In this document: piece by piece, positions 9,742 to 20,585 of the stretch
Layout: the number at the start of each line of letters is the position of its first letter
Position numbering within the stretch: position 1 is the first letter of the stretch
From: the human T2T-CHM13v2.0 reference genome, Homo sapiens
Strand: one strand, 5' to 3'
DNA length: 64,000 nt
Assembly (NCBI RefSeq): GCF_009914755.1
Contig: NC_060925.1
The notes under the pieces: model-generated
The model's input: only the letters and a program-made list of their open reading frames with translations
Told to the model about the DNA's origin: nothing
The model's database searches: none
Position numbers and translations under genes: made by a program

Positions 9742-11632
9742 AATTTCAGATCCTGTTATTGGTCTATTCAGAGATTCAACTTCTTATACACCAATAACAG
9801 ACAAACAGAGAGCCAAATCATGAGTGAACTCCCATTCACAATTGCTTCAAAGAGAATAAAATACCTAGGAATCCAACTTACAAGGGATGTGAAGGACCTC
9901 TTCAAGGAGAACTACAAACCACTGCTCAATGAAATAAAAGAGGATACAAACAAATGGAAGAACATTCCATGCTCATGGGTAGGAAGAATCAATATCATGA
10001 AAATGGCCATACTGCCCAAGGTAATTTATAGATGTAATGCCATCCCCATTAAGCTACCAATGACTTTCTTCACAGAATTGGAAAAAACTACTTTAAACTT
10101 CATATGGAACCAAAAAAGAGCCCACATCGCCAAGTCAATCATAAGCCAAAAGAACAAAGCTGGAGGCATCATGCTACCTGACTTCAAACTATACTACAAG
10201 GCTACAGTAACCAAAACAGCATGGTACTGGTACCAAAACAGAGATATAGATCAATGGAACAGAACAGAGCTCTCAGAAATAACACCGCATATCTACAACT
10301 ATCTGATCTTTGACAAACCTGAGAAAAACAAGCAATGGGGAAAGGATTCCCTATTTAATAAATGTTGGTGGGAAAACTGGCTAGCCATATGTAGAAAGCT
10401 GAAACTGGATCCCTTCCTTACACCTTATACAAAAATCAATTCAAGATGGATTAAAGACTTAAACGTTAGACCTAAAACCATAAAAACCCTAGAAGAAAAC
10501 CTAGGCATTACCATTCAGGACATAGGCATGGGCAAGGACTTCACACCTAAAACACCAAAAGCAATGGCAACAAAAGACAAAATTGACAAATGGGATCTAA
10601 TTAAACTAAAGAGCTTCTGCACAGCAAAAGAAACTACCATCAGAGTGAACAGGCAACCTACAAAATGGGAGAAAATTTTCGCAACCTACTCATCTGACAA
10701 AGGGCTAATATCCAGAATCTACAATGAACTCAAACAAATTTACAAGAAAAAAACAAACAACCCCATCAAAAGGTGGGTGAAGGACATGAACAGACACTTC
10801 TCAAAAGAAGACATTTATGTAGCCAAAAAACACATGAAAAAATGCTCACCATCACTGGCCATCAGAGAAATGCAAATCAAAACCACAATGAGATACCATC
10901 TCACACCAGTTAGAATGGCAATCATTGAAAAGTCAGGAAACAACAGGTGCTGGAGAGGATGTGGAGAAACAGGAACACTTTTACACTGTTGGTGGGACTG
11001 TAAACTAGTTCAACCCTTGTGGAAGTCAGTGTGGCGATTCCTCAGGGATCTAGAACTAGAAATACCATTTGACCCAGCCATCCCATTACTGGGTATATAC
11101 CCAAATGACTATAAATCATGCTGCTATAAAGACACATGCACACGTATGTTTATTGCGGCATTATTCACAATAGCAAAGACTTGGAACCAACCCAAATGTC
11201 TAACAATGATAGACTGGATTAAGAAAATGTGGCACATATACACCCTGGAATACTATGCAGCCATAAAAAATGATGAGTTCATGTCCTTTGTAGGGACATG
11301 GATGAAATTGGAAATCATCATTCTCAGTAAACTATCGCAAGAACAAAAAACCAAACACTGCATATTCTCACTCATAGGTGGGAATTGAACAATGAAATCA
11401 CATGGACACAGGAAGGGGAATATCACACTCTGGCGACTGTGATGGGGTCGGGGGAGGGGGGAGGGATAGCATTGGGAGATACACCTAATGCTAGATGACG
11501 AGTTAGTGGGTGCAGCGCACCAGCATGGCTCACGTATACATATGTAACTAACCTGCACAATGTGCACATGTACCCTAAAACTTAAAATATAATTTAAAAA
11601 ATAATAATAAATAAATAAATAAATAAATAAAT
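8905..11632 (+). mobile_element. L1 #1: 5'-truncated, 5'-inverted L1PA2-type LINE-1 (8905-9785 inverted, 9781-11632 sense)
   Basis: 14-bp TSD AAATGGAAAAATGG at 8891-8904 and 11633-11646; 3' UTR gatgacgagttagtggg...cacaatgtg; (TAAA)n tail; 5-nt TTCTT microhomology at the junction. Confidence 0.96.
9820..11388 (+). pseudogene. L1 ORF2p C-terminal fragment (thumb/wrist and Cys-rich CTD), open to the native stop
   Basis: 522-aa [29 protein letters not shown], ends SLIGGN. Confidence 0.95.
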
Positions 11633-11760
11633 AAATGGAAAAATGGATATGAAGTAAGCAACTAGGAGTCTTTGTAGCTATATCTTCCCAAATAAGACAA
11701 GGAACTTAAGGTCATCTTCTATTTAAATTCTTCTCTTCTGTTTCATGTATTATGACTTGT

Positions 11761-12068
11761 ATTTTATTTATTTATTTATTTATTGAGACAGAGTTTCACT
11801 CTTTTTGTCTAGGCTATAGTGCAGTGGCGTGATCTTGGCTCACTGTAACGTCCAGTTCCTGGGTTCAAGCGATTCTCCTGCCTCACCCTTCTGAGTAGCT
11901 GGGACTACAGGAACCCGCCACCATGCCCAGATATTTTTTGTATTTTTTGGTAGACACAGGTTTTCACCATGCTTGCCAGGATGGTCTTGAACTCCTGACC
12001 TCAGGTGACCCGCCCACCTCGGCCTCCCAAAGTGCTGGGATTACAGGTGTGAGCCACTGCGCCCGGCC
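11761..12068 (-). mobile_element. AluS (Sq/Sx-like), full length
   Basis: (TTTA)n tail, both arms, ends gcgcccggcc. Confidence 0.95.
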
Positions 12069-17363: not shown

Positions 17364-19622
17364 CTACTTTATCATAAATACTTCCTTAATGGTAATGCCT
17401 AGGTTTTCTTCTAGGGTTTTTATGGTTTTAGGTCTAACGTTTAAGTCTTTAATCCATCTTGAATTAATTTTTGTATAAGGTGTAAGGAAAGGATCCAGTT
17501 TCAGCTTTCTACATATGGCTAGCCAGTTTTCCCACCAACATTTATTAAATAGGGAATCCTTTCCCCATTGCTTGTTTTTCTCAGGTTTGTCAAAGATCAG
17601 ATAGTTGTAGATATGCGGTGTTATTTCTGAGAGCTCTGTTCTGTTCCATTGATCTATATCTCTGTTTTGGTACCAGTACCATGCTGTTTTGGTTACTGTA
17701 GCCTTGTAGTATAGTTTGAAGTCAGGTAGCGTGATGCCTCCAGCTTTGTCCTTTTGGCTTAGGATCGACTTGGCGATGTGGGCTCTTTTTTGGTTCCATA
17801 TGAAGTTTAAAGTAGTTTTTTTCAATTCTGTGAAGAAAGTCATTGGTAGCTTAATGGGGATGGCATTACATCTATAAATTACCTTGGGCAGTATGGCCAT
17901 TTTCACGATATTGATTCTTCCTACCCATGAGCATGGAATGTTCCTCCATTTGTTTGTATCCTCTTTTATTTCATTGAGCAGTGGTTTGTAGTTCTCCTTG
18001 AAGAGGTCCTTCACATTCCTTGTAAGTTGGATTCCTAGGTATTTTATTCTCTTTGAAGCAATTGTGAATGGGAGTTCACTCATGATTTGGCTCTCTGTTT
18101 GTCTATTATTGGTGTATAAGGATGCTTGTGATTTTTGCACATTGATTTTGTATCCGGAGACTTTGCTGAAGTTGCTTATCAGCTTAAGGAGATTTTGGGC
18201 TGAGACGATGGGGTTTTCTAGATATATAATCATATCATCTGCAAACAGGGACAATTTGACTTCCTCTTTTCCTAATTGAATACCCTTTATTTCCTTCTCC
18301 TGCCTAATTGCCCTGGCCAGAACTTCCAACACTATGTTGGAAAGGAGTGGTGAGTTGGAAAGGAGTGGTGAGAGAGGGCATCCCTGTCTTGTGCCAGTTT
18401 TCAAAGGGAATGCTTCCAGTTTTTGCCCATTGAGTATGATATTGGCTGTGGGTTTGTCATAGATAGCTCTTATTATTTTGAGATACGTCCCACCTATACC
18501 TAATTTATTGAGAGTTTTTAGCATGAAGCGTTGTTGAATTTTGTCAAAGGCCTTTTCTGCATCTATTGAGATAATCATGTGGTTTTTGTCTTTGGTTCTG
18601 TTTATATGCTGCATTACATTTATTGATTTGTGTATATTGAACCAGCCTTGCATCCCAGGGATGAAGCCCACTTGATCATGGTGGATAAGCTTTTTGATGT
18701 GCTGCTGGATTCGTTTTGCCAGTATTTTATTGAGGATTTTTGCATCACTGTTCATCAGGGATATTGGTCTAAAATTCTCTTTTTTGGTTGTGTCTCTGCC
18801 CGGCTTTGGTATCAGGATGATGCTGGCCTCATAAAATGAGTTAGGGAGGATTCCCTCTTTTTCTATTGATTGGAATAGTTTCAGAAGGAATGGTACCAGT
18901 TCTTCCTTGTACCTCTGGTAGAATTCAGCTGTGAATCCATCTAGTCCTGGACTCTTTTTCGTTGGTAAGCTATTGATTATTGCCACAATTTCGGAGCCTG
19001 TTATTGGTCTATTCAGAGAGTCAACTTCTTCCTGGTTTAGTCTTGGGAGGGTGTATGTGTCGAGGAATTTATCCATTTCTCCTAGATTTTCTAGTTTATT
19101 TGTGTAGAGGTGTTTGCAGTATTCTCTGATGGTAGTTTGTATTTCTGTGGGATCAGTGGTGACATCCCCTTTATTATTTTTTATTGCGTCTATTTGATTC
19201 TTCTCTCTTTTCTTCTTTATTAGTCTTACTAGCGGTCTATCAATTTTGTTGATCCTTTCAAAAAACCAGCTCCTGGATTCATTAATTTTTTGAAGGGTTT
19301 TTTGTGTCTCTATTTCCTTCAGTTCTGCTCTGATTTTAGTTATTTCTTGCCTTCTGCTAGCTTTTGAATGTGTTTGCTCTTGCTTTTCTAGTTCTTTTAA
19401 TTGTGATGTTAGGGTGTCAATTTTGGATCTTTCCTGCTTTCTCTTGTGGGCATTTAGTGCTATAAATTTCCCTCTACACACTGCTTTGTTTGTGTCCCAG
19501 AGATTCTGCATGGGCAAGGACTTCATGTCTAAAACACCAAAAGCAATGGCAACAAAAGACAAAATTGACAAATGGGATCTAATTAAACTAAAGAGCTTCT
19601 GCACAGCAAAAGAAACTACCAT
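17364..19622 (-). pseudogene. Endonuclease-less L1 ORF2p fragment including the whole RT core (752-aa ORF, N-terminus from antisense L1)
   Basis: QNLWD...[34 protein letters not shown]; no stop over ~2.1 kb. Confidence 0.95.
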
Positions 19623-20585
19623 CAGAGTGAACAGGCAACCTACAAAATGGGAGAAAATTTTCGCAACCTACTCATCTGACAAAGGGCTAATATCCAGAAT
19701 CTACAATGAACTCAAACAAATTTACAAGAAAAAAACAAACAACCCCATCAAAAGGTGGGTGAAGGACATGAACAGACACTTCTCAAAAGAAGACATTTAT
19801 GTAGCCAAAAAACACATGAAAAAATGCTCACCATCACTGGCCATCAGAGAAATGCAAATCAAAACCACAATGAGATACCATCTCACACCAGTTAGAATGG
19901 CAATCATTGAAAAGTCAGGAAACAACAGGTGCTGGAGAGGATGTGGAGAAACAGGAACACTTTTACACTGTTGGTGGGACTGTAAACTAGTTCAACCCTT
20001 GTGGAAGTCAGTGTGGCGATTCCTCAGGGATCTAGAACTAGAAATACCATTTGACCCAGCCATCCCATTACTGGGTATATACCCAAATGACTATAAATCA
20101 TGCTGCTATAAAGACACATGCACACGTATGTTTATTGCGGCACTATTCATAATAGCAAAGACTTGGAACCAACCCAAATGTCTAACAATGATAGACTGGA
20201 TTAAGAAAATGTGGCACATATACACCATGGAATACTCTGCAGCCATAACAAATGATGAGTTCATGTCCTTTGTAGGGACATGGATGAAACTGGAAATCAT
20301 CATTCTCAGTAAATTATCGCAAGAACAAAAAACCAAACACCGCATATTCTCACTCATAGATGGGAATTGAACAATGAGAACACATGGACACAGGAAGGGG
20401 ATCATCACACTCTGGGGACTGTCGTGGGGTGGGGGGAGGGGGGAGGGATAGCTTTAGGAGATATACCTAATGCTAAATGACGAGTTAATGGGTACAGCAC
20501 ACCGGCATGGCACATGTATACATATGTAACTAACCTGCACATTGTGCACATGTACCCTAAAACTTAAAGTATAATAATAATAAAA
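17388..20585 (+). mobile_element. L1 #2: 5'-truncated, 5'-inverted L1PA3-type LINE-1 (17388-19508 inverted, 19508-20585 sense), inserted in an L2
   Basis: TSD AAATACTTCCTT 17376-17387 / AAAGACTTCCTT 20586-20597 (11/12); 3' UTR gctaaatgacgagttaatggg...cacattgtg; 10 nt (caggacatag) missing at the inversion point. Confidence 0.96.
19508..20370 (+). pseudogene. L1 ORF2p C-terminal fragment
   Basis: [12 protein letters not shown] ... [18 protein letters not shown] ... SLIDGN. Confidence 0.95.

What the first reader, a model, noticed from the sequence alone, without database searches (positions are those of the whole stretch)
10547..20142. ~614-bp identical tract between two independently inserted L1s of different subfamily type (direct-orientation gene conversion)
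Seen (by-eye alignment): 10547-11160 and 19529-20142 (offset 8982) show no difference, while flanking homologous parts differ often. The elements have separate TSDs and L1PA2-type versus L1PA3-type 3' UTRs. They share non-consensus bases at 10772, 10778, 10820, 10927, 10970, 11016 and, just past the tract, 11201 (KRWV, IYVA, IIEK, GETG, KCLT); the L1 at 41096-42222 retains the ancestral states (e.g. KKWAK, IYAA). Inference: recent non-allelic gene conversion, probably #1 into #2 since the tract carries PA2-like states.
Basis: partly seen in the sequence, partly recalled or inferred. Interest (0 to 1): 0.75.

Follow-up and report, generated by a model that had tools for sequence, protein, structure and literature searches.

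The report
Neighbouring LINE-1 copies overwriting each other
Two separately inserted LINE-1 retrotransposon copies 9 kb apart on human chromosome 1 share a perfectly identical 614-base stretch and a second, reversed stretch of rare shared mutations, likely because DNA repair copied one onto the other at least twice; the process is known, and this is an unusually clear case.

Summary
Confirmed: 10547-11160 and 19529-20142 are identical over 614 bp, while never-shared homologous parts differ by 4.5-6.7%. Both L1s are separate 5'-inverted insertions with their own TSDs. No third copy with this haplotype appeared among the scored genome-wide hits.

E1's sense arm (9795-10368) shares 7 rare states with E2's inverted arm (18108-17535); each occurs in 0-1 of 56-59 other copies. 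There E1 carries E2-lineage states at 4 sites, and 9 differences have arisen since. This points to an older E2-to-E1 conversion in inverted orientation.

The donor of the 614-bp tract is unresolved: 11106T points to E1, but 10849C and 10548T point to E2.

Best reading (0.86): repeated non-allelic gene conversion between neighbouring L1s, one event old and one probably after the human-chimpanzee split. Reads, other haplotypes and ape orthologues could not be checked. The process is known, mostly from Alu pairs under 10 kb apart. The twist is that the inverted structure makes one L1 pair both a direct and an inverted repeat.

The parts
8891..8904 (+). E1 5' target-site duplication (14 bp)
   Evidence: exact match to 11633-11646
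8905..9782 (-). E1 inverted 5' arm (ORF2 middle); no sign of conversion, 4.5% from E2's homologous part
9783..11632 (+). E1 sense arm: ORF2 3' part (stop at 11386), 3' UTR of the younger type, A-rich tail
9795..10368 (+). Tract A (minimum extent) in E1: likely recipient of an older conversion from E2's inverted arm; 7 rare shared states, 4 E2-lineage states, 9 later differences
10544..10546 (+). three adjacent substitutions in E1 only, at the left edge of tract B
10547..11160 (+). Tract B in E1: 614 bp identical to E2's sense arm
11633..11646 (+). E1 3' target-site duplication
17380..17387 (+). E2 5' target-site duplication (8 bp exact)
   Evidence: exact match to 20590-20597
17388..19507 (-). 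E2 inverted 5' arm; 17388-18120 is an inverted repeat of E1 9783-10515 (98% complementary, about 6.9 kb apart)
17535..18108 (-). Tract A partner in E2, likely donor
19508..20589 (+). E2 sense arm (starts at the base matching E1 10526), 3' UTR of the older type, A-rich tail
19529..20142 (+). Tract B in E2
20590..20597 (+). E2 3' target-site duplication

Best explanation
Two separately inserted, 5'-inverted L1 copies 9 kb apart share an identical 614-bp tract and a second, inverted tract of rare variants, likely through at least two one-way copying events (non-allelic gene conversion) during homologous repair. Shown: because E2's 5' arm is inverted, E1's sense arm is at once an inverted repeat of E2's 5' arm (9783-10515) and a direct repeat of E2's 3' arm (10526-11590). 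Inferred: an older event copied E2's inverted arm into E1 (tract A), after which 9 differences arose. A later event, probably after the human-chimpanzee split, homogenised tract B in direct orientation. Tract B mixes states of both lineages, so its donor is open: either E1 overwrote E2 after an earlier E2-to-E1 transfer, or E2 was the donor again. The repair route (synthesis-dependent strand annealing or non-crossover resolution) is assumed from general knowledge, not tested.
For: Tract B: 0 of 614 sites differ, against 29 of 430 and 40 of 884 in flanking homology; permutation 0 of 200,000. Only E1 and E2 scored 100% among 40 scored hits in each (exact score); the next copy has 7 differences in the tract. 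Tract A: 7 rare states shared, against at most 3 in 703 other pairs; no other copy has more than 1 of the 7 (55 copies cover all sites). E2's inverted arm is the best genome-wide hit for E1 9783-10515 (1273 vs 1255 bits). Direction of A, E1 relatives vs E2 relatives: 9795T 1 of 12 vs 13 of 13, 9930T 1 of 12 vs 12 of 17, 10029T 3 of 12 vs 17 of 18, 10173G 1 of 12 vs 16 of 18. E2 shows no younger-type state in A, so the transfer is non-reciprocal. E1's 10172T is the decay product of the CpG that E2 still has, which fits copying followed by mutation. Ages differ: 9 of 574 vs 0 of 614 differences, Fisher p=0.0014. A review reports raised conversion rates between Alu copies under 10 kb apart (PMC6598467).
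Against: One assembly only: no reads, second haplotype or ape orthologue could be compared. The comparison copies are best BLAST matches, not a random sample, and each search scored only 40 of 792-7053 candidates. The first comparison set was biased and briefly suggested a firm E1-to-E2 direction that the unbiased set removed. 10437 keeps E1's own state between E2-like sites, so tract A's right end is uncertain. Tract A could be a patchwork of short tracts rather than one old event.
Confidence: 0.86

Rival explanations
1. Tract B is an assembly or polishing artefact: reads from one copy overwrote the other.
For: Perfect identity between nearby repeats is the expected signature, and raw reads could not be examined.
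Against: The assembly was built from about 20-kb HiFi reads with an estimated 1 error per 10 Mbp (PMC9186530); each element is about 3 kb with non-L1 flanks. Tract A shows sharing in inverted orientation with interspersed differences, which a collapse would not give.
Confidence: 0.04
2. E1 became a chimera at insertion: its new cDNA recombined with, or was repaired from, the resident E2.
For: Tract A starts within 12 bp of E1's inversion junction and E2 is the donor. cDNA-mediated conversion is described for yeast retrotransposons (PMC6598467).
Against: E1 has only 2-3 changes of its own in tract A, against 10.5 expected from its unconverted parts (p=0.002-0.007), so the copying came well after insertion. 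The junction is also simply where homology ends. It cannot explain the zero-difference tract B.
Confidence: 0.04
3. Tract A arose through inversion and re-inversion of the 6.9-kb interval between the inverted arms, followed by allelic recombination.
For: The arms are 738 nt and 98% complementary. L1-flanked inversions of this size exist (median 5.5 kb, PMC9675761) and inversions between inverted repeats recur (PMC3961182).
Against: The present arrangement is the ancestral one, with both TSD pairs direct. E2 has no E1-type state in A. Extra steps are needed, and tract B lies in direct orientation.
Confidence: 0.04
4. Both elements came from the same or a closely related source lineage, and the identity is inherited.
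For: Some shared bases are lineage variants (10970C 16 of 78, 11016C 9 of 79). One pair of very young copies has a 697-bp identical run.
Against: The elements differ by 4.5% and 6.7% outside the tracts and belong to different groups at 9 sites of the 3' end. Sharing stops at the inversion junction. No third copy was found.
Confidence: 0.02

Closest known systems
Non-allelic gene conversion between neighbouring Alu elements (Aleshin and Zhi 2010; Kass 1995; Roy 2000; all seen only as summarised in Fawcett and Innan 2019, PMC6598467)
   Same: Copies under 10 kb apart, locally reduced divergence, mosaic subfamily-diagnostic states.
   Different: Here the copies are L1s, the tracts are about 600 bp, and two events of different age use opposite orientations of the same pair.
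L1 gene conversion and recombinant L1s (Burton et al. 1991, title only in a reference list; 35 of 2,267 full-length human L1 loci called recombinant, PMC13192797)
   Same: L1 copies that are mosaics of different lineages.
   Different: The pangenome screen covers full-length elements and assigns donor groups; here the elements are truncated and the donor is the identified neighbour.
L1-mediated rearrangements (PMC9675761; PMC12350158) and recurrent inversions between inverted repeats (PMC3961182)
   Same: Same substrate: young L1PA pairs a few kb apart, direct pairs giving deletions and opposite pairs giving inversions.
   Different: No crossover here: both TSD pairs and the interval are intact; only sequence was transferred.
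Twin-primed (5'-inverted) L1 insertions (Ostertag and Kazazian 2001; paper not held, cited in PMC12350158)
   Same: TSD, inverted 5' arm, about 10 nt lost at the junction, sense arm and A-rich tail in both elements.
   Different: Nothing in the insertion itself; the point is what the structure allowed afterwards.

Membership tests
Non-allelic gene conversion between transposable-element copies | Copies are independent insertions, not a duplication | tested here: met
   Different TSDs, different inversion junctions, no shared flanking sequence
Non-allelic gene conversion between transposable-element copies | Local tract far less diverged than the rest of the homology | tested here: met
   0 of 614 and 9 of 574, against 40 of 884 and 29 of 430
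Non-allelic gene conversion between transposable-element copies | Shared derived states absent from unlinked copies | tested here: met
   7 states in tract A (0-1 of 56-59 copies) and 3 in tract B (0-2 of 77-78); comparison limited to best matches
Non-allelic gene conversion between transposable-element copies | Mosaic of lineage-diagnostic states | tested here: met
   E1 has older-type states at 9795, 9930, 10029, 10173 and younger-type states 3' of 11161; E2 has 11106T
Non-allelic gene conversion between transposable-element copies | Non-reciprocal transfer without crossover | tested here: met
   Both copies carry the same states, E2 has no E1-type state in A, TSD pairs and interval intact
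Non-allelic gene conversion between transposable-element copies | Identified donor and recipient | tested here: inconclusive
   Tract A: E2 to E1. Tract B: mixed signals
Non-allelic gene conversion between transposable-element copies | Pre-conversion state seen in orthologues or other haplotypes; reads support the sequence | not testable with these tools
Twin-primed L1 insertion | TSD, inverted 5' arm, small loss at the junction, sense arm with A-rich tail | tested here: met
   Both elements
L1PA2 (E1) and L1PA3 (E2) | Match to the subfamily consensus | not testable with these tools
   No repeat library held. E1 and E2 fall in two data-defined 3'-end groups; the names, and which group is younger, are from recall. 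One L1PA2-labelled 3' end printed has, by eye, E1's state at 4 of 7 sites

The most novel reading that the evidence does not exclude
A 5'-inverted L1 next to another L1 forms a direct and an inverted repeat at once, and such pairs are recurrent conversion sites. One old break near E1 10520 could have been repaired from both arms of E2 in opposite orientations, leaving E2-type states on both sides of the junction. Continued homogenisation keeps the pair primed for an 8,982-bp deletion and a 6.9-kb inversion that may segregate in people. If common genome-wide, this would bias L1 dating and subfamily calls and give dated tracts for measuring ectopic conversion rates.
Probability: 0.2. Interest if true: 0.65.

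Novelty: new member of a known kind. Interest (0 to 1): 0.42.

Why it matters
It is a clean example with a known neighbour-donor, two events of different age and both orientations at one locus. The review read here calls studies of conversion in transposable elements 'rather limited' (PMC6598467), with most human evidence from Alu and LTR elements. The pair can be dated with ape and pangenome assemblies, and it predicts a specific deletion and inversion. There is no sign of functional effect: the elements are truncated and lie away from the annotated exons of two predicted lncRNAs whose spans cover them.

Tried and rejected
1. Firm E1-to-E2 direction for tract B: it looked strong with tract-selected copies (11106T 31 of 31 vs 1 of 29) and was dropped after the unbiased set.
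2. 11201T as part of a longer tract: 11161 keeps each element's own state, 4 of 83 other copies carry it, and 190 of 1596 unrelated pairs share a rare state in that region.
3. Conversion between the two inverted arms: only 9284C (common in older copies) and 9682A are shared; rejected.
4. Exchange with the L1s at 41096-42222 or 51578-51871: one shared rare state (11482) in four comparisons.
5. The 240-bp identical run at 10173-10412 as its own recent event: other pairs reach similar runs (up to 218 in younger-by-older pairs); not claimed.
6. GC bias in the tracts: too few sites.
7. A recalled PRDM9-type 13-mer: one match at 20443 in E2's G-rich 3' UTR and three elsewhere in the window; uninformative.
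8. Known structural variant at the locus: none in supplement 4 of PMC9675761 (GRCh38 position estimated from recall) or supplement 2 of PMC12350158 (file cut when stored; its largest supplement unreadable). Both negatives are weak.
9. Nine literature searches listed no paper whose title or abstract opening points to this locus; none used the locus's coordinates or gene name. The search joining gene conversion, twin priming, inverted repeats and LINE-1 found 0 papers. Aleshin and Zhi 2010 and Ostertag and Kazazian 2001 are not held.
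Full report
Observation. At offset 8982 the window has no mismatch from 10547 to 11160; mismatches resume at 10544-10546 and 11161. The rest of the direct homology differs at 29 of 430 sites, and the two inverted arms differ at 40 of 884 sites plus an 18-bp insertion. None of 200,000 permutations gave so long a run. Among 48 other copies covering the region, the longest identical run was 300 in 504 younger-by-older pairs and 304 in 210 older pairs. It was 697 in one of 276 young pairs, two copies that differ at only 3 of 1065 sites. 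E1 or E2 against any other copy reached at most 246. The comparison copies are best BLAST matches, which makes these nulls conservative for run length but biased for allele frequencies.

Anatomy. Both elements are 5'-inverted L1s. E1 has a 14-bp TSD (8891, 11633), an inverted arm to 9782 and a sense arm from 9783. E2 has an 8-bp TSD (17380, 20590), an inverted arm 17388-19507 and a sense arm from 19508. About 10 nt are lost at each junction. The junctions fall at different L1 positions, so E1's sense arm is an inverted repeat of E2's 5' arm (738 nt, 98% complementary, 6862 nt apart) and then a direct repeat of E2's 3' arm. At five 3'-end sites outside the tracts the other copies split into two groups; E1 falls in one and E2 in the other. 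Calling them younger/L1PA2 and older/L1PA3 rests on recall.

No third copy. Genome-wide searches with the whole tract, a 71-bp piece and a 206-bp piece gave the top score only to E1 and E2 (40 of 2779, 792 and 1722 candidates scored). The closest other copy has 7 differences. 10778T (10 of 77), 10970C (16 of 78), 11016C (9 of 79) and 11201T (4 of 83) are not private. Of 77 copies covering all six in-tract sites, one carries three and none more.

A second tract. E1's sense arm and E2's inverted arm share rare states at 10034, 10035, 10050, 10098, 10271, 10365 and 10368, each in 0-1 of 56-59 other copies; no other copy has more than one. Unrelated pairs share at most 3 (703 pairs). E2 is the best genome-wide match to this part of E1. 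Against relatives chosen by each element's own 3' flank, E1 carries E2-lineage states at 9795 (1 of 12 vs 13 of 13), 9930 (1 of 12 vs 12 of 17), 10029 (3 of 12 vs 17 of 18) and 10173 (1 of 12 vs 16 of 18). E2 has no E1-type state there. So E2 was copied into E1. Nine differences lie between the shared sites, and one (10172) is the decay of a CpG that E2 retains, which favours one old event followed by mutation over a recent patchwork. E1 has 2-3 changes of its own in the tract against 10.5 expected for its full age (p=0.002-0.007), so the event came after insertion.

Direction of the 614-bp tract. With tract-selected copies 11106T looked decisive for E1 as donor (31 of 31 vs 1 of 29). With 16 copies chosen by E1's 3' flank it is 5 of 16 vs 0 of 26. 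Meanwhile 10849C (0 of 16 vs 15 of 24), 10548T (5 of 14 vs 20 of 20) and 10887A (9 of 16 vs 24 of 24) point to E2. The tract is 2.6% from E1's relatives and 4.4% from E2's, but E2's relatives are also more diverged among themselves (6.1% vs 2.5%), so distance does not decide. An older E2-to-E1 transfer later overwritten from E1 into E2, or a second E2-to-E1 transfer, both fit.

Timing. Tract A has 1.57% divergence (95% interval 0.72-2.98) and tract B 0% (upper bound 0.60%); Fisher p=0.0014. With a recalled human-chimpanzee divergence of 1.2%, zero differences in 614 bp has p=6e-4, so B probably postdates the split. A cannot be placed on either side of it.

Rivals. An assembly artefact cannot be tested here. 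It is unlikely given about 20-kb HiFi reads and about 1 error per 10 Mbp (PMC9186530, passages), and it cannot produce tract A. Shared ancestry fails on the flanks. A chimera formed at insertion fails on timing. Inversion and re-inversion needs extra steps and left no reciprocal trace.

What is known. Fawcett and Innan 2019 (PMC6598467; parts 1-3 of 4 read) review conversion among Alu and LTR copies, with raised rates under 10 kb, citing Aleshin and Zhi 2010 (not held). A pangenome preprint of 2,267 full-length L1 loci recombinant (PMC13192797, passages). L1 pairs mediate deletions and inversions (PMC9675761 and PMC12350158, passages), and inversions between inverted repeats recur (PMC3961182, passages). 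Nine topic searches listed nothing that points to this locus, though none used its coordinates or gene name. Two supplement searches found no variant here; one used a recalled GRCh38 offset and the other file was cut, and unseen supplements may list one.

Verdict. A real feature: most likely repeated non-allelic gene conversion between neighbouring L1s (0.86), a new member of a known kind. The two ages and two orientations make it a good test locus. Interest 0.42.

Noticed in passing
window 18336-18371: Exact 18-bp tandem duplication inside E2's inverted arm.
   Followed up: partly
window 10544-10546: Three adjacent transitions in E1 only, directly at the left edge of the identical tract; may have limited the tract or arisen later.
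   Followed up: partly
window 41087-42232: Older minus-strand L1 3' end with a 9-bp exact TSD-like match (41087, 42224), 91-92% identical to E1 and E2; no sign of exchange with them.
   Followed up: yes
window 51578-51871: Short plus-strand L1 3' end with intermediate 3' UTR states; no rare states shared with E1 or E2.
   Followed up: partly
L021 (G000:C9:7742966) and L027 (G000:C1:71771311): Two unlinked L1 copies differing at only 3 of 1065 sites, presumably very young siblings.
   Followed up: no
G000:C8:15823414 and 15843749; G000:C2:103333961 and 103357541: Two further pairs of similar L1s 20-24 kb apart (one direct, one inverted) among the hits; candidates for the same test.
   Followed up: no
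window 9784-11388: E1's sense arm keeps an unbroken ORF2 frame of 534 codons to its stop, though the element is truncated and inverted.
   Followed up: no
window 11771-12083: Alu-like repeat (by eye, and by self-matches) about 125 bp downstream of E1's 3' TSD.
   Followed up: no
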